Notes: a model not told the origin generated them from the letters alone. A stretch of 14,165 nucleotides of DNA from a virus (IMGVR_UViG_2551306525_000004:1-14165); one strand, 5' to 3'. Positions 156-14,165 are shown, numbered from the stretch's first letter. Numbers and translations: made by a program.

Positions 156-533
156 ATGCGTGATATTCAAATGGTTCTGGATCGTTGGGGAGCATGGGCG
201 GCGAGTGATAGTTCAGGAGTAGACTATTCTCCTATAGCTGCTGGGTTTAAAGGGCTTCTTCCCTATACAAGCAAAACACGTCAGGCATGTTCAGATAGTG
301 ATGCATTAATTATTGAAGGTTGTCTTGCTCGTCTAAGGCAAAAAAGGCCGGACGAACATTCGCTTCTTGTTGCCCATTACCTATACGGTATCTCTAAAAG
401 AAAGCTCGCCAAGGCTCGTAAAAAGGATGAGAAACTAATACGCATTGAGATACAGATGGCTGAGGGGTTTATTGATGGCTGCCTATCGATGCTGGAAATT
501 AGTCTAGAGATGGACCCCGAAATTAAAGATTGA
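156..533 (+). CDS. Q: Late-gene antiterminator Q (short QuuD-like Q family)
   Basis: ATG at 156 preceded by GGAG (145-148); frame is open from TTG 141. Product MRDIQMVLDRWGAWAA... resembles the ~125-130-aa Q antiterminators of E. coli lambdoid prophages as I recall them, and it sits upstream of the lysis module. Confidence 0.8.
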   Translation: MRDIQMVLDRWGAWAASDSSGVDYSPIAAGFKGLLPYTSKTRQACSDSDALIIEGCLARLRQKRPDEHSLLVAHYLYGISKRKLAKARKKDEKLIRIEIQMAEGFIDGCLSMLEISLEMDPEIKD

Positions 534-539
534 TTATTG

Positions 540-564
540 AAGCCCGATTACTCGGGCTTTTGTT
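540..564 (+). terminator. Intrinsic terminator-like hairpin between convergent Q and the antisense gene
   Basis: Stem aagcccg (540-546) / cgggctt (553-559), loop attact, followed by T-rich tract. The stop codon of the minus-strand gene (548-550) lies inside the hairpin. Confidence 0.5.
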
Positions 565-1567
565 CCACATCTCGAACATAGAGAATTACTGCTGACTTAA
601 TGTCACCATCGACGTGTTTTGCGTTAATGCTCAAATGTACAGGCTTTCTTTCCCACTCAGCTCGCTGCAATGCTTCTTTGTTTCCGGATTCATCAAGGAA
701 AACATCCTGAACTACGCAGGTTAGACGTTGGTCGGTATCTACGCGTCGGACCTTAACTTTGAAACTCTCTGGGTCAGTATTATTGACTTCTTCAATTCGG
801 TAAATACCATCAATCCTCATTTCTGATGAACGTCTACGAGCATTCGTAACCAACTCTTTCGCCATTTCAGAATCAATAGTAACGCCATCAATTTGAGCGT
901 TATCTGAACGCACAAAGGATTTGACCATTTGGGTTTTAGCGTCATACGACATACGGTCCATGTTATCGAGAAGTGGTTTTTCCGCAATCATTTCTGAAAT
1001 AACCCGCAGGCGTTTAGTTTCTTGCTCGCTCATGATCTGCATAGTCCGGAGATGTTCTTTCTCTCCATCCTTAGCAATTTCTGCAAGGCGAATATCTTTA
1101 CGGTTGTCCAAGAACCGTTTAAATACTGTTACTCCGCCCCAGATGACTGCTGCGCCGAGAACAGTAAACATGATCTCAGTTGCGTTCATTTTACCAACAA
1201 GTTCCTGTGTGAGTTTGGTTAAAAAGCCATCAATGTTGATTTCTACTATTGAAGAACCCTGTTCTACCGTAACTTCTATTTCTAGGGCATCAAGTTCTTC
1301 TTTGGTCAGTTTGCGGACGTCAGGGACACCGTACTTGGCAAGGGCATATGATTTGTTGATTTGAGCTTGCATTTCAACAAATCCCTTCATAACTGAAGGT
1401 GTTAGCGATCTGTTGAATTTTTCACCGGTTAATCTGATGGTAAGGTTTGGCCATCCGTTGAAACTTAAACTGTCAGGTAAACCATAACCATCAAGATAGC
1501 TTTCAAGCAAATCGAAGGCTTGCTGCTCAGATTCAATGTCTACATGAATCTCATCAAACTTATCCAA
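548..1567 (-). CDS. Hypothetical membrane-anchored protein, 339 aa, unknown function (moron; candidate exclusion/defence factor)
   Basis: Long ORF with TTG start at 1567 preceded by GAGGA at 7-nt spacing. One central hydrophobic helix (EIMFTVLGAAVIWGGVTVF) followed by a K/R-rich stretch. AT-rich by eye and antisense to all flanking phage genes. Confidence 0.75.
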   Translation of the reverse strand: MDKFDEIHVDIESEQQAFDLLESYLDGYGLPDSLSFNGWPNLTIRLTGEKFNRSLTPSVMKGFVEMQAQINKSYALAKYGVPDVRKLTKEELDALEIEVTVEQGSSIVEINIDGFLTKLTQELVGKMNATEIMFTVLGAAVIWGGVTVFKRFLDNRKDIRLAEIAKDGEKEHLRTMQIMSEQETKRLRVISEMIAEKPLLDNMDRMSYDAKTQMVKSFVRSDNAQIDGVTIDSEMAKELVTNARRRSSEMRIDGIYRIEEVNNTDPESFKVKVRRVDTDQRLTCVVQDVFLDESGNKEALQRAEWERKPVHLSINAKHVDGDIKSAVILYVRDVEQKPE

Positions 1568-1862
1568 AAATATGTCCTCATTCTAAGCCAACTGTCACCG
1601 TGAGGTTTGGCAACGCCTGCTTTATTTTTCGTTTTAAGCTGTGTGGCAAAAAAATAATGGAAAAACAGATAAAAATCACTAACGCGGTCCGCATTTTCTA
1701 GATTACTGTGTTAAGAGTGGTTACTTCGCCACACAACTTAAACCCGCCGCTGAGCGGTTTTTTTGTACCTGTAAACTTGGTGCAGCACAGTAAACACGCT
1801 GGTGGTCGTGAATACTGACTTTTTATCTTGCTGGCTTTTTAGACAAGAGTTATTGGTATGTC
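1568..1862. promoter_or_regulatory. Divergent intergenic control region between the antisense gene and the HTH-ORF/methylase unit
   Basis: About 300 bp of AT-rich non-coding DNA between divergently oriented genes. Contains a weak hairpin followed by T7 (about 1747-1766). No confident -35/-10 assignment. Confidence 0.3.
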
Positions 1863-3582: not shown

Positions 3583-3870
3583 ACAACGAATCCTTCTGAT
3601 CTGCTTTTGCGGGGCTTTTTGTATCCGCTCCATGCCCGGCGTATAAGCGGAGGTTGGTCAGTTTTCTAAAAATTGAAATACCTCACAATTCAGCCAGTTA
3701 ATGGTTGTTTGTCTGGCGAAGAGTTTGTAAATAAAAAAACGCATGGTGAATCCCCCTAAGCGGCGGGGCGAATCAGCAGTCAGTTCTGGGATAATCGCGG
3801 GTTCGTATGCTGATGCCGGACTCACCGGGAGGCACCCGGCACCATGCATCATGGTCATCCCCTTGTATGA

Positions 3871-3896
3871 TACCCCTCTCCGGAGGGGTATTTTTT
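3871..3896 (+). terminator. Strong rho-independent terminator
   Basis: 8-bp GC-rich stem tacccctc / gaggggta with loop tccg, followed by T6 (3891-3896). Confidence 0.6.
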
Positions 3897-4328
3897 GGAT
3901 AAAAAAGCCCGCGCTGGGAGGCACGGGCGGCAAGGAATAAAACGTGAAGAAATTTTCACAGGCGCATAATAATCCGATGTTGCCAGATTTTGCAACTGCA
4001 TCATCTGGTTATTATGTGAGCTGGAAAATCAGATTCTGTATGGACTGAAGCCATGCTGTTATTTAGGGCCAAAGAGCTGGCTTTTTCCCGCCTTCTCTCC
4101 AGTAACGATTAATGAGAAAAGAATGAAATGCTTTTCCTGGGGAGGAGGGCAGTAGAAAAAAGAACCCGCCAGCAAAAATATGGGGGATGAACAGCTTTTG
4201 CTACTCAGGTTGCTGGCGGGTATGGTTCTTCATGAAATAAGAATGTTACGCGGTATTTTTAATGAAAATGATAATTATTGTCAATTGGTTGTGCGTATTT
4301 TTTCATACATGACTGGTAAAGGTGATTC

Positions 4329-6324: not shown

Positions 6325-6618
6325 TTATTTTGAGCAATACACCCGCGCTTCCAGCGGAGTATAAATGCCAAAAGTGATGAAACCGAGCAATCCATTTACG
6401 AATGTTTGCTGGGTTTCTGTTTTAACCACATTTTCTGCACCACCACAAATTTTTGCTGCATCGACAGTTTTCTTCTGCCCAATTCCCGAAACGAAGAAAT
6501 GATGGGTGATGGTTTCCTTTGGTGTTACTGCTGTCGGTTTGTTTCCAACAGTAAACGTCTGTTGAGCACATCCTGTAATAAGCATTGCCAGAGCGGCAGA
6601 AAACAACATTTTTTTCAT
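6325..6618 (-). CDS. bor: Bor lipoprotein (serum-resistance/envelope lipoprotein)
   Basis: ATG at 6618 (minus) with AGGA SD. Product MKKMLFSAALAMLITGCAQQTFTV... with lipobox, close to lambda Bor as I recall it. Convergent with Rz/Rz1. Confidence 0.85.
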   Translation of the reverse strand: MKKMLFSAALAMLITGCAQQTFTVGNKPTAVTPKETITHHFFVSGIGQKKTVDAAKICGGAENVVKTETQQTFVNGLLGFITFGIYTPLEARVYCSK

Positions 6619-6816
6619 CTTATTATCCTGCATTGTTAAAAACGGCAGAATCCTATGTGACAACAATTAAACGATAGTTAAATGGATTGATGAAAATTAA
6701 AACTACACAGGTGAGCTCAGACGATTGGAGGGAGTTGGGGACACTCAGAATCCTGTAGAATGAAATAAACCGGTCTATCCGTCCATTACCCTTTTAGCTG
6801 CGCTGTATCGTCGCCG

Positions 6817-6881: not shown

Positions 6882-7098
6882 ATTAAAAACGATGCACACC
6901 GGGTTTTTACCGCGTTAATGATTCGCGGATTTATCCCGGTGCGATGGTGGAAGAAACCGGAAGCTGTATTACAGAAAGTGCTACTACTGTATCCCGATGC
7001 GATGTATGTAATGTGAGTCAGATAATGGCACAGGATGTGGTGATGTGGCAGTCTGGAACACAGGATATATTGTCAGAATAAGACCCGTAGGAATAAAA

Positions 7099-7425
7099 AT
7101 GAAAAGACGCCTTTTACTACTTTTTCTGTTATCTGTCCTAGCAGTGGGATGCTCGCAGCAAAAAGCTGATGAGCCCCGGCAATTAGTGACGGTGTATCCA
7201 CGATATCCGGAATATGCTGCAGCAAATTATATCAAGGGGCTGGTTGAGGTTAAGTTCGATATTGGTGCTGATGGGACTGTGACACGGATCGTTTTTCTCC
7301 GCTCAGAGCCTCATAATTTGTTTCGTGATGAAGTGGTGAAGGCCATGGCGAAATGGCGATTTGAAAAGAATCGTCCCTGTCAGGGAGTGAAGAGACAATT
7401 TATCTTTACGCCGTCACGTCCCTGA
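7099..7425 (+). CDS. Lipoprotein with a TonB C-terminal-like domain (moron)
   Basis: ATG 7099 with AGGA SD. Signal peptide plus lipobox (MKRRLLLLFLLSVLAVGCSQQ). Mature part YPRYPEYAAANYIKGLVEVKFDIGADGTVTRIVFLRSEPHNLFRDEVVKAMAKWRFE aligns well with the TonB C-terminal domain as I recall it (YPARAQALRIEGQVKVKFDV...FEREVKNAMRRWRYE). Confidence 0.7.
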   Translation: MKRRLLLLFLLSVLAVGCSQQKADEPRQLVTVYPRYPEYAAANYIKGLVEVKFDIGADGTVTRIVFLRSEPHNLFRDEVVKAMAKWRFEKNRPCQGVKRQFIFTPSRP

Positions 7426-12625: not shown

Positions 12626-12935
12626 TCTCCCGCATATTGCCAGCATGGCTTTTAATGAGCCGCTGATGCTTGAACCCGCCTATGCGCGGGTTTTCTTTTG
12701 TGCGCTTGCAGGCCAGCTTGGGATCAGCCGCCTGACGGATGCAGTATCCGGCGACAGCCTGACTGCCGGAGAGGCACCCGCGGCGCTGGCGTTATCCGGT
12801 GATGATGACGGACCACGACAGGCCCGCAGTTATCAGGTCATGAACGGCATCGCCGTGCTGCCGGTGTCCGGTACGCTGGTCAGCCGGACGCGGGCGCTGC
12901 AGCCGTATTCGGGAATATCTTCAGTCCCATACTGA
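12606..12935 (+). pseudogene. C: Truncated gene C (head protease/scaffold); only about 103 N-terminal codons of lambda-like sequence, then out-of-context sequence to a stop
   Basis: GTG 12606, product MTAELRNLPHIASMAFNEPLMLEPAYARVFFCALAGQLGIS...RALQPYSG matches the lambda gpC N-terminus (full length about 439 aa). Homology stops near 12916 and the frame ends at 12935. Confidence 0.8.
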
Positions 12936-12936
12936 T

Positions 12937-13071
12937 ATGCCCGGCAACGATGACCTGAAGGGCATTAACGTGAAATACCGTTATGAGTTTACGGACACGC
13001 TGGGGATGGTGACGTCATTCAGCTATGCAGAAGACAAGAATCGCCAGCTGACTCATTACAGCGATAGCCGT
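12937..13071 (+). pseudogene. lom: Internal fragment of a lom-like (Ail/Lom/PagC family) outer-membrane protein gene
   Basis: Translation PGNDDLKGINVKYRYEFTDTLGMVTSFSYAEDKNRQLTHYSD matches an internal segment of lambda Lom (VPGSDDLNGINVKYRYEFTDTLGLVTSFSYAGDKNRQLTRYSD) as I recall it. No signal peptide and no C-terminus. Confidence 0.6.
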
Positions 13072-13245
13072 TCTGACGGTACTCATCCCCGCGCCAATCT
13101 GGCGGGCAATGGTTTCAATCGATGGCCAGCACACACCTTCGTCATTACTGAAATCAGCCAGGCGGGCCATAATTGCCACGCTGGATAATTTCATGCCTGA
13201 CGCTGCGCAACCATCCCATACATAGCCGGTTAATTTAGTGCTCAT
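13015..13245 (-). pseudogene. Truncated HTH (HTH_36-like) replication/regulatory gene N-terminus, e14 ymfN-like
   Basis: First ~58 codons (MSTKLTGYVWDGCAASGMKLSSVAIMARLADFSNDEGVCWPSIETIARQIGAGMSTVR) look like the HTH N-terminus of phage replication-initiation proteins. The remaining 18 codons are antisense of the lom fragment, so the gene is cut at about 13071/13072. Confidence 0.5.
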
Positions 13246-13254
13246 GACCGACCT

Positions 13255-13593
13255 CTATTTCCCTGAATTTACGACGAAACTGTTCGAGCGGACTGAAGCA
13301 CTCATGCTCATAGCCTTCGCGGAGGTAGATAACCCGTTGTGTTTCCGGTTCCCAACGAATGACTCTGACGGGCACTCCGTAGTGATCTTTGAACCAGCGG
13401 TTAACTTGTCGCAAAGGACTGTCTCCTTCTGCCGGTTGAAATCCCCCACAGCCCACTCTGCAAAGCTGTGGGTTACAATTTCCCTGTCACCTGGTACATT
13501 CACTGCATAGCAATATTCCACCTTCGCTTTTCCACCCGGTACAGGAAGCGCAATCAGTTGCGAGCGACGGTAGTGTGTTGTTAAACTGTTCAT
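13255..13593 (-). CDS. Hypothetical protein, 112 aa (e14 ymfM-like by size and position)
   Basis: ATG 13593 overlaps the stop of the upstream gene (ATGA). The size and the 189-aa / 112-aa / HTH gene order match e14 ymfL-ymfM-ymfN as I recall. The C-terminal half is low-complexity and an alternative frame overlaps it. Confidence 0.45.
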
Positions 13594-14159
13594 GCGTTAG
13601 TTTCTCCACAACCAGAAGCAATCGACGCCACGACGCCCGGAGCTGCACACTCGCGGGCGTCATTACTTTCTGAAATGCAAAAGATTTTGTAGACCAGTGC
13701 TGCATGCTCCTGCAGCTTCGAAATTGAGAGATACAGCTCGTCGTTAATTGCTGTCTTCTCATGCGGTTCCACTACACCGTCTTCGATTGCTGAACGAATC
13801 TGTTTTGAATAACTGCCGATCTGTTCAATGACTTCCAGCAGACGCTGGTTAATATCGGCGTTGTCCACATCCTCGACGTCAGGAAGCGACACAAAGACGC
13901 CATTTGCAGACTGCGCCACAGCATCAGCAATGAAGTGAGTGCCACCAGCACGCTGTAAAACCATTGCCCATCCCAGCGGGAAAATCTGATCGCCATCTGC
14001 ACGAAGGCGGTTGAATAAAGCGTTTTCTGTTACATCGAGCCAGTCAGCCGCTTCAGCGTAACCACCCGGCAACGCCGCGATAGTTTTTCTGACAGCTTTC
14101 ACGTACCACTCAGGCTGTTTTTCTATTTTCCAGTGATGCTTACCCACGATTAGCCTCAT
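13590..14159 (-). CDS. Phage CII-like regulatory protein (CP76-type; e14 ymfL-like), 189 aa
   Basis: Full-length [61 protein letters not shown]...; the family assignment is from memory. Its promoter lies outside the window. Confidence 0.6.
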
Positions 14160-14165
14160 CGTTGT

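What the first reader, a model, noticed from the sequence alone, without database searches (positions are those of the whole stretch)
548..1567. Orphan antisense membrane-anchored protein in the Q-to-lysis moron slot: candidate single-gene phage exclusion/defence factor
A 339-aa ORF runs antisense to every neighbouring phage gene, directly downstream of Q, in the slot where lambdoid prophages carry cargo (nmpC in DLP12, stx in Stx phages). It has its own SD (GAGGA, 7 nt before TTG 1567), looks AT-rich relative to the flanks, and its stop codon sits inside a hairpin shared with the end of Q. The protein has an acidic ~130-aa N-terminal domain, one hydrophobic helix (EIMFTVLGAAVIWGGVTVF) followed by a K/R cluster, and a ~190-aa charged C-terminal domain. 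I cannot match it to any family from memory (not a porin, Rex, Sie, Lit or Old-like pattern). A membrane-tethered effector expressed from a lysogen is a recurring architecture for abortive-infection and superinfection-exclusion proteins.
Basis: partly seen in the sequence, partly recalled or inferred. Interest (0 to 1): 0.8.

Follow-up and report, generated by a model that had tools for sequence, protein, structure and literature searches.

The report
Unstudied prophage cargo gene, probable phage defence
A real 339-residue gene running backwards next to the prophage's late-gene regulator Q belongs to a large, unstudied family of prophage cargo proteins that most likely protects lysogens from other phages; a published machine-learning screen already lists this exact protein as a predicted defence gene, but nobody has tested it.

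Summary
ORF 548-1567(-) is real: TTG start, GAGGA Shine-Dalgarno 7 nt upstream, and a stop codon in the loop of a strong hairpin just after Q. It is identical to RefSeq WP_000357056.1 and under strong purifying selection.

It is not an orphan. It belongs to PHROG 6191, a family of uniform ~335-aa proteins across Proteobacteria (1,519 clusters at 50% identity).

An AlphaFold model (pLDDT 85) shows four parts: a conserved N-terminal alpha/beta domain, a marginally hydrophobic kinked helix with a conserved W-G-G motif, a helical linker and a C-terminal OB-fold. No Pfam, NCBIfam, PADLOC or PDB family matches.

Context is the strongest evidence:
- The Q-proximal slot is a swappable cassette; other E. 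coli prophages carry NYN, WYL or other genes there.
- Relatives sit directly behind the cI repressor (the lambda rexAB position), between tail genes I and J, or in a Mu-like phage.

DefensePredictor (Science 2026, Table S10) lists this protein as a "predicted novel defense gene" (mean log-odds 6.55). It was not cloned or validated there.

Best reading: a lysogen-expressed single-protein anti-phage factor. It resembles AbiP/PdpSau (hydrophobic anchor plus OB-fold) in architecture but is not homologous to them. Function and membrane topology remain untested.

The parts
548..1567 (-). CDS, 339 aa, TTG start, TAA stop; identical to WP_000357056.1; member of PHROG 6191
1575..1579 (-). Shine-Dalgarno GAGGA, 7 nt before the TTG start codon
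539..560 (.). Strong hairpin between the convergent Q and ORF339 genes. The ORF339 stop codon lies in its loop. A U-rich tail follows on the plus strand (terminator-like for Q transcripts); the tail on the minus strand is poor.
   Evidence: z -3.1 / -3.9; sequence
1193..1546 (-). N-terminal alpha/beta domain (aa 8-125), acidic. It is the most conserved part, with the motif LTGEKFxxSLTPSVMKGFVElQ and invariant G48, T56, Q67, G104, S105.
1121..1177 (-). Hydrophobic helix (aa 131-149) with conserved W-G-G and an A140xxxG144 motif. It is kinked at residue 145 in the model. It is a marginal transmembrane candidate, followed by a K/R-rich flank.
827..1120 (-). Charged helical linker plus small beta-hairpin (aa 150-247)
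566..826 (-). C-terminal OB-fold (aa 248-334) with conserved R251-x-D253-G254-x-Y256 and Q301-x-A303-E304-W305
515..1708 (.). Variable cassette. Homology to sibling prophages with the same Q ends at 514 and resumes at 1671-1741; other prophages carry different genes in between.
1568..1708 (-). Cassette-private, AT-rich upstream region where the gene's own promoter is expected. No convincing sigma-70 match was found.

Best explanation
ORF339 is accessory cargo (a moron) of a lambdoid prophage. I propose it is expressed in the lysogen and protects the lysogen, and so the prophage, against other phages as a single-protein sensor-effector. In this model the hydrophobic W-G-G helix holds or delivers the protein to the inner membrane. 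The helical linker and OB-fold face the cytoplasm, as the K/R-rich C-terminal flank suggests, and bind a phage-derived ligand such as single-stranded nucleic acid or a phage protein. Binding then drives helix-helix association that disturbs membrane integrity or potential and aborts the infection.

Shown: the gene is real and constrained; the domain architecture; the cassette nature of the slot; the recurrence in lysogenic-operon and other moron slots; the lack of homology to any characterised family; the published machine-learning prediction.

Inferred: expression in lysogens, anti-phage function, topology, ligand, and membrane damage as the effector step.
For: 1. Cargo status. The frame DUF968-Q...small ORF-DNA methylase is conserved, while the gene between them varies. 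Alternatives are an NYN-domain protein (antisense), a WYL-domain protein, a 148-aa protein (antisense), cdtI orf53/54 (antisense) and mEp460_051. Sharp homology breakpoints lie at 514 and 1671-1741.
2. The family moves between prophage cargo slots:
- Immediately behind and co-directional with cI in Salmonella/Klebsiella/E. coli, Morganella, Moraxella phage Mcat17 and E. coli phage phi458. In a lambda-like prophage the order is cro<-|cI->gene->N, which is exactly the rexAB position. Gaps to cI are as short as 25-31 bp.
- One to two genes downstream of cI in Acinetobacter-type prophages.
- Between tail genes I and J in P. aeruginosa.
- In a Mu-like phage.
- Convergent with Q before the holin in Enterobacter and Pantoea.
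3. DefensePredictor Table S10 lists WP_000357056.1 with mean log-odds 6.55 (min 4.51), above the paper's stringent cutoff of 4. The distant relative WP_001272876.1 scores 6.86. Both are labelled 'Predicted novel defense gene' with no HHblits or Foldseek hit to known defence proteins. That relative is a full-length homolog (hhalign 98%, E 7e-14).
5. Precedents. PdpSau and AbiP are single proteins with an anchor and a cytoplasmic OB-fold, and PdpSau infection causes membrane depolarisation. DS-34 is a validated defence consisting of CI plus a downstream membrane protein.
6. Nine of 15 loci, including this window, use a non-ATG start codon (8 TTG, 1 GTG) behind a good Shine-Dalgarno. This is compatible with deliberately low expression of a risky protein.
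Against: - There is no experimental or expression evidence of any kind.
- DefensePredictor's validation rate was 45% overall, and it partly uses the same context signal that I used.
- No PADLOC model matches.
- The hydrophobic helix is only marginally membrane-competent: about +2.7 kcal/mol for the best 19-residue window in this protein and as the family median.
- The model is compact, so the helix could be buried in a soluble fold.
- The positive-inside rule would put a 128-aa signal-less N-domain in the periplasm, which is unusual.
- OB-folds bind many ligand types.
- No promoter was identified.
- The N-terminal domain, the most conserved part, has no assigned fold or role.
Confidence: 0.4

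Rival explanations
1. Superinfection exclusion without cell death. The protein sits in the inner membrane and blocks genome entry of incoming phages, as P22 SieA, HK97 gp15, T4 Imm or P1 Sim do. The conserved N-domain would be on the periplasmic side, interfering with the tape-measure/ejection machinery.
For: - It has the same contextual support as the best explanation.
- The positive-inside rule predicts N-out/C-in: mean 3.7 K/R in the C-terminal flank against 1.9 in the N-terminal flank.
- The N-domain is acidic.
- The Pseudomonas copy sits inside a tail-gene cluster, a position HK97 gp15 also occupies (from memory).
Against: - Translocating a folded 128-aa N-domain without a signal peptide is unusual.
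- A cytoplasmic OB-fold plus 100-aa helical linker would have no obvious role.
- Known Sie proteins are smaller or polytopic.
Confidence: 0.2
2. A lysogenic-conversion or host-fitness factor unrelated to phages, for example an envelope or stress function, as with bor/iss and lom.
For: - It is prophage cargo in slots that also carry virulence or fitness genes.
- bor lies in the same window (6325-6666).
- About 55% of the DefensePredictor predictions that were tested did not validate.
Against: - It is found across free-living and host-associated Proteobacteria, including Acinetobacter, Vibrio, Burkholderiales and Syntrophotalea.
- It has no signal peptide or lipobox.
- The cI-downstream position is classically occupied by immunity/exclusion genes.
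- Alternative cassettes in the same slot include NYN and WYL domain proteins.
Confidence: 0.15
3. A function in the phage's own life cycle, such as control of lysis timing, induction or replication, rather than defence.
For: It is adjacent to Q and the lysis genes in E. coli, Enterobacter and Pantoea and adjacent to cI elsewhere. A membrane-proximal protein next to holins could modulate lysis.
Against: - It is dispensable. Sibling prophages with the same Q and lysis genes lack it and carry unrelated genes.
- Only 83 of 5,426 complete E. coli genomes have it, and only 3 of 50,697 phage records have any homolog.
- Its position varies between regulatory, lysis and tail modules.
- It is antisense to the late operon here.
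Confidence: 0.1
4. A selfish toxin or addiction element that stabilises the prophage.
For: Weak start codons and a hydrophobic helix are compatible with a toxic membrane protein.
Against: - No conserved partner (antitoxin) gene; neighbours differ in every context.
- No antisense RNA family was detected.
Confidence: 0.05

Closest known systems
AbiP (Lactococcus) and PdpSau (S. aureus prophage 53 ORF016)
   Same: Each is a single mobile-element-encoded protein with one hydrophobic anchor helix and a cytoplasmic OB-fold. PdpSau is prophage cargo beside the lysis module. It aborts infection after DNA entry, with membrane depolarisation (PMC10127798). This is the best working analogy for how ORF339 may act.
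   Different: - Their anchor is N-terminal and they have no extra N-terminal domain; ORF339 has a 128-aa conserved N-domain before a central helix.
- hhalign of the family profile against PdpSau gives 0.07% probability, so it is not a family member.
- The hosts are Gram-positive.
- AbiP itself could not be compared, because no sequence was available.
Lambda RexA/RexB
   Same: Relatives of ORF339 occupy exactly the cI-downstream, PL-proximal slot of rexAB and are probably co-transcribed with cI. The proposed logic, a cytoplasmic sensor plus a membrane effector causing abortive infection, would be the same but in one polypeptide.
   Different: - Rex is a two-gene system and RexB has four transmembrane segments.
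- There is no sequence relation: hhalign 0.13% to RexA and 0.09% to RexB.
- In this window the gene lies at Q, not at cI.
DefensePredictor 'predicted novel defense gene' clusters (DeWeirdt, Mahoney and Laub, Science 2026), and its validated DS-34 (CI plus AbiZ-like membrane protein)
   Same: WP_000357056.1 is itself one of the 1,041 uncharacterised predicted clusters. DS-34 shows that a membrane protein directly behind a prophage CI gene can confer defence.
   Different: - ORF339 and its relative WP_001272876.1 were not among the cloned or validated units; the accession and the family's hallmark motifs are absent from Tables S6-S8.
- The DS-34B sequence is unrelated on visual inspection.
Prophage superinfection-exclusion membrane proteins (P22 SieA, HK97 gp15)
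   Same: They are moron-encoded, lysogen-expressed inner-membrane proteins that act alone (knowledge of the field; the SieA paper is listed).
   Different: They are smaller or polytopic with no OB-fold, and they block DNA entry rather than sensing inside the cell. No sequence comparison was run here.
PHROG 6191
   Same: Full-length profile match, E 1.6e-152. This is the family it belongs to.
   Different: The PHROG has no annotated function, so membership says nothing about mechanism.

Membership tests
PHROG 6191 (unknown function) | Full-length match to the family profile | tested here: met
   E 1.6e-152, residues 3-337 on profile positions 2-337 of 338
AbiP/PdpSau-type membrane-anchored OB-fold Abi proteins | Detectable sequence or profile homology | tested here: not met
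   hhalign of A1 against PdpSau gives probability 0.07%.
AbiP/PdpSau-type membrane-anchored OB-fold Abi proteins | N-terminal transmembrane anchor followed directly by the cytoplasmic domain | tested here: not met
   The hydrophobic helix is central (aa 131-149), after a 128-aa conserved domain.
AbiP/PdpSau-type membrane-anchored OB-fold Abi proteins | OB-fold domain C-terminal to the anchor | tested here: met
AbiP/PdpSau-type membrane-anchored OB-fold Abi proteins | Abortive-infection phenotype with loss of membrane potential | not testable with these tools
   Needs infection assays and potential-sensitive dyes.
Lambda RexAB | Homology to RexA or RexB | tested here: not met
   hhalign 0.13% and 0.09%
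Lambda RexAB | Location in the cI (PRM) operon between cI and PL/N | tested here: not met
   In this window the gene is next to Q. The feature is met only for relatives.
Catalogued anti-phage defence systems (PADLOC-DB v2) | Match to any defence protein model | tested here: not met
   No hits for the protein at E<=1. Only scattered weak hits appeared among 46 family members. DefensePredictor's own HHblits and Foldseek comparison was also empty.
Phage moron (accessory cassette) | Present or absent, or replaced by unrelated genes, between otherwise syntenic phage genomes | tested here: met
   Five alternative contents sit in the same frame, with sharp breakpoints.
Phage moron (accessory cassette) | Own promoter and terminator | tested here: inconclusive
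   A strong hairpin lies at the 3' end, but its minus-strand U-tract is poor and no credible sigma-70 promoter was found in 1568-1860.
Phage moron (accessory cassette) | Base composition distinct from neighbours | tested here: inconclusive
   GC is 0.420 against 0.498 for the window and 0.481 for the methylase, but Q is 0.438.
Phage moron (accessory cassette) | Expression from the repressed prophage | not testable with these tools
   Inferred only, from antisense orientation here and cI-operon position in relatives.
Single-pass inner-membrane protein | A hydrophobic segment long and hydrophobic enough to span the bilayer | tested here: inconclusive
   Kyte-Doolittle 1.77 over 19 residues and conserved in position. 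The Hessa-type estimate is marginal (about 0 for the 18-residue core by hand calculation; +2.7 for the best 19-residue window and as family median). The helix is kinked at G144-G145 and the model is compact (pTM 0.81).
DefensePredictor validated systems (DS-1 to DS-45) | Cloned and shown to reduce plating of at least one phage | tested here: not met
   The accession and family motifs are absent from Tables S6-S8; it is present only in the prediction list S10.

The most novel reading that the evidence does not exclude
This family (at least 1,500 clusters at 50% identity across Proteobacteria) is a new, widespread single-polypeptide abortive-infection or exclusion system that functionally replaces RexAB in many temperate phages. 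A previously undescribed N-terminal domain and a cytoplasmic OB-fold sensor would be coupled to a conditionally membrane-inserting W-G-G helix as the effector.
Probability: 0.3. Interest if true: 0.7.

Novelty: new variant of a known kind. Interest (0 to 1): 0.5.

Why it matters
If it is confirmed as a defence protein, three things follow:
- It would add a widespread, one-gene, non-enzymatic anti-phage system. The system would pair an undescribed N-terminal domain with a hydrophobic helix and an OB-fold.
- It would show that the Q-proximal antisense slot of lambdoid prophages is a defence hotspot comparable to the cI-rex slot.
- It would explain what many lambdoid, Mu-like and Pseudomonas prophages carry where lambda carries rexAB.

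It is also a compact and tractable test case for one of the 1,041 unvalidated DefensePredictor clusters. If it does not defend, it is a useful false positive for a context-driven predictor.

Tried and rejected
- **Sequence families.** Pfam, NCBIfam and PADLOC scans gave nothing above threshold, on the protein and on all 46 alignment members.
  - A sub-threshold FNIII-A_GpJ hit (18.6 bits against a cutoff of 27) and a DUF7947 hit (8 of 46 members, about 17-19 bits) both fall on the OB-fold strands. I treated them as noise or generic beta similarity.
  - The MetS hits are hydrophobic-helix artefacts.
- **PDB by sequence.** Neither the single sequence nor the profile gave a significant match.
  - BFVD gave three full-length but very loose matches to uncharacterised phage proteins (TM-score 0.2-0.26), which were not informative.
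  - AFDB50 was not available.
- **Homology to known defence proteins.** No relation to PdpSau, RexA or RexB. Tab (83 aa) and Tai were rejected from their published descriptions.
- **RNA features.** No tRNA and no Rfam family overlaps the locus.
- **Promoter.** The only sigma-70-like match upstream overlaps the Shine-Dalgarno and start codon, so it cannot serve this gene.
- **Late promoter.** I could not locate PR'/qut. The plus-strand terminator-like site at 1746-1758 does not fold better than shuffled sequence (z -0.9), so I make no claim about whether the cassette lies upstream or downstream of PR'.
- **Literature.** There are no papers on WP_000357056, PHROG 6191 or DUF7947. The phi458 paper was listed but I did not read it for Orf11. 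Brenes and Laub 2025 (Cell Host Microbe) is not held and could not be checked.
- **dN/dS.** It could not be computed because synonymous sites are saturated; only pN and pS are reported.

Full report

Yes. ORF 548..1567 on the minus strand is 339 codons with a TTG start. RefSeq annotates the identical CDS as WP_000357056.1, 'hypothetical protein', in E. coli PCN061 and 82 other complete genomes, 83 of 5,426 in all.

- GAGGA lies 7 nt before the TTG.
- Every neighbouring gene runs the other way: Q (PF06530, 141-533), a 75-aa ORF, an N6/N4 DNA methylase, then a P21-type holin, lysozyme and Rz.
- The TAA stop sits in the loop of an 8-9 bp hairpin at 539-560. The hairpin folds far better than shuffled sequence on both strands (z -3.1 and -3.9). 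On the plus strand a U-rich tail follows it.
- The gene is under strong constraint. Against the Enterobacter homolog pN is 0.08 with pS saturated at 0.80. Relatives keep the same length from 100% down to about 26% identity.

Three points need correcting.
- The family is large, not an orphan.
- The AT-richness is real against the window (0.420 versus 0.498), but Q itself is 0.438.
- Membrane anchoring is plausible rather than shown (see section 2).

**2. What the protein looks like**

A word-indexed search gave 101 relatives. These come from Enterobacterales, Pseudomonas, Acinetobacter and Burkholderiales. An exhaustive profile search of 1.84 billion cluster representatives gave 1,519 hits, 591 of them below 1e-30 and nearly all 320-350 aa. 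Plasmid and phage collections add Vibrio, Proteus, Syntrophotalea, Moraxella and Pasteurella.

An AlphaFold2 model built on 46 sequences is confident, with pLDDT 85.4 and pTM 0.81. It has four parts.
- **N-terminal alpha/beta domain (aa 8-125).** It is acidic and the best-conserved region. It carries the motif LTGEKFxxSLTPSVMKGFVElQ and invariant G48, T56, Q67, G104 and S105.
- **Hydrophobic helix (aa 129-163).** The first 18-19 residues are hydrophobic, it is kinked at a conserved W-G-G, and a K/R-rich stretch follows.
- **Charged helical linker.**

No whole-protein structural analogue and no Pfam, NCBIfam, PADLOC or PDB sequence match exists. The only family assignment is PHROG 6191, of unknown function. 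The conserved residues do not look like a catalytic set.

The hydrophobic segment passes the classical Kyte-Doolittle threshold (1.77). A Hessa-type estimate is only marginal. It is about 0 kcal/mol for the 18-residue core by hand calculation and +2.7 for the best 19-residue window, which is also the family median (the scale was recalled from memory). Distant members have only about 15 hydrophobic residues.

Flank charges favour N-out/C-in. That topology would require exporting a 128-aa domain without a signal peptide. Topology, and even stable membrane insertion, therefore stay open.

**3. Context, the most informative evidence**

*(a) The slot is a swappable cassette.*

Other E. coli prophages share the frame DUF968-Q...204-bp ORF-DNA methylase. 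Between these genes they carry different content:
- an antisense NYN-domain protein;
- a WYL-domain protein;
- an antisense 148-aa protein;
- in phage cdtI, two antisense ORFs;
- in phage mEp460, yet another gene.

Homology breaks sharply at window 514 and resumes at 1671-1741.

*(b) The family moves between cargo slots of unrelated temperate phages.*

| Position | Hosts or phages |
|---|---|
| Convergent with Q, before the holin | Enterobacter, Pantoea |
| Directly behind and co-directional with cI | Salmonella/Klebsiella/E. coli, Morganella, Moraxella phage Mcat17 |
| One to two genes downstream of cI | Acinetobacter-type prophages |
| Between tail genes I and J | P. aeruginosa |
| Mu-like phage | metagenomic contig |
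| Next to an insertion sequence | Burkholderiales |

A full-length distant relative (hhalign 98%, E 7e-14) is Orf11 of E. coli phage phi458, the same protein as WP_001272876.1. In a lambda-like prophage it lies in the order cro<-|cI->gene->N-ral-cIII-kil-gam-bet. That is exactly the place of rexAB in lambda. Gaps of 25-31 bp to cI imply co-transcription from the maintenance promoter. No partner gene is conserved across these contexts.

*(c) Start codons.* Nine of 15 loci inspected, including this window, start with a non-ATG codon (8 TTG, 1 GTG) behind a good Shine-Dalgarno.

**4. Literature**

The exact protein is listed in Table S10 of DefensePredictor (DeWeirdt, Mahoney and Laub, Science 2026, PMC13092281).
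- It is labelled 'Predicted novel defense gene', with mean log-odds 6.55 (min 4.51, max 9.74; the paper's stringent cutoff is 4).
- It has no HHblits or Foldseek hit to known defence proteins.
- The phi458-type relative scores 6.86.
- Neither protein, nor any sequence with the family's hallmark motifs, appears in the tables of cloned or validated systems.
- Overall, 45% of 94 cloned units validated.
- One validated system, DS-34, is a CI repressor plus a downstream AbiZ-like membrane protein. It is a direct precedent for the cI-downstream slot.

No paper mentions the accession, PHROG 6191 or DUF7947. Brenes and Laub 2025 could not be read.

**5. How it most likely works**

I commit to a lysogen-expressed, single-protein anti-phage factor. 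I give about 0.55-0.6 to anti-phage function of any kind (the sum of the abortive-infection estimate of about 0.4 and the exclusion rival at about 0.2).

The most likely specific mechanism is a sensor-effector abortive-infection protein (about 0.4 as stated). The cytoplasmic linker and OB-fold would bind a phage nucleic acid or protein. The conserved W-G-G helix with its A140xxxG144 motif would then self-associate in, or insert into, the inner membrane and collapse membrane integrity.

- The working analogy is AbiP/PdpSau, which have an anchor plus a cytoplasmic OB-fold. PdpSau sits beside the lysis module of its prophage and depolarises infected cells.
- Conceptually it would be RexA/RexB fused into one chain.
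- Shown: architecture, cassette behaviour, slot recurrence, absence of homology, and the published prediction.
- Inferred: expression, function, topology, ligand and effector step.

The rivals are:
- entry-blocking superinfection exclusion (about 0.2);
- a non-phage fitness factor (about 0.15);
- a role in the phage's own cycle (about 0.1). This is disfavoured because sibling prophages replace the gene with unrelated genes;
- an addiction toxin (about 0.05).

**6. Membership**

It is a member of PHROG 6191.

It is not a member of the PdpSau family (hhalign 0.07%, different anchor position). It is not related to RexA or RexB (0.13% and 0.09%). No PADLOC family matches. It works 'like' these systems only by architecture and context.

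**7. Novelty and verdict**

The feature is real. The family is uncharacterised, and the defence reading is well motivated but untested. Because a published screen already flags this exact protein, the candidate status is not new. Four things are added here:
- the architecture (OB-fold, conserved N-domain, W-G-G helix);
- the size and spread of the family;
- the demonstration that the Q-proximal antisense slot is a cassette hotspot;
- the equivalence with the rexAB slot.

I rate it a new variant of a known kind (single-gene prophage exclusion or abortive-infection protein), with interest 0.5.

Noticed in passing
window 3712-3900 (+): Rfam STnc100 sRNA (RF02076, 114.5 bits, E 6e-25). It ends in a strong terminator (3869-3892 plus T-run) and lies between the DNA methylase and the P21-type holin. 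Recent papers link STnc100 to prophage-encoded 'Pas' sRNAs of pathogenic E. coli.
   Followed up: partly
window 7045-7425 (+): A 126-aa ORF with a TonB C-terminal domain (Pfam E 1.1e-12). It lies in the Rz-to-Nu1 cargo region next to bor (6325-6666, minus strand, Lambda_Bor E 1e-30). It is a possible second moron.
   Followed up: no
window 12917-14165, including ORF 13590-14159 (-): No complete E. coli genome matches the window beyond 12916. Shortly after the lambda-family portal gene, the window ends in a Phage_CP76/CII-like regulator on the opposite strand. This suggests a mosaic or truncated prophage junction.
   Followed up: partly
window 515-1708 and loci L022-L026: The same Q-proximal slot carries an antisense NYN-domain protein (WP_000750482), a WYL-domain protein (WP_000360285), a 148-aa protein (WP_001038608) or cdtI orf53/54 in other prophages. 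This behaves like a defence-type hotspot. None of the three accessions appears in the held, partly truncated DefensePredictor tables.
   Followed up: partly
loci L002, L007, L011, L017, L021, L027, L028, L030 and window 1565-1567: Non-ATG start codons recur in the family. TTG is used in E. coli, Enterobacter, Pantoea, Salmonella, Moraxella and Burkholderiales, and GTG in P. aeruginosa. This is 9 of 15 loci, each behind a good Shine-Dalgarno.
   Followed up: partly
L002 15237-16969: The P. aeruginosa prophage carrying the family member between tail genes I and J also carries a DarT-Macro (DarTG-like) pair a few kb downstream. That prophage therefore holds known defence cargo as well.
   Followed up: no
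L006 6308-10193 and L031 4550-7700: In Acinetobacter-type prophages the family member follows cI. There it sits within a run of co-directional cargo genes: an HSDR_N-domain protein (L006 only), a 100-aa ORF and a GGDEF-domain protein.
   Followed up: no
window 1746-1765 (+): A short GC hairpin plus T7 run looks like a tR'-type terminator and marks where homology to many lambdoid phages resumes. It does not fold better than shuffled sequence (z -0.9). PR'/qut could not be located, so it is unclear whether the cassette lies upstream or downstream of the late promoter.
   Followed up: partly
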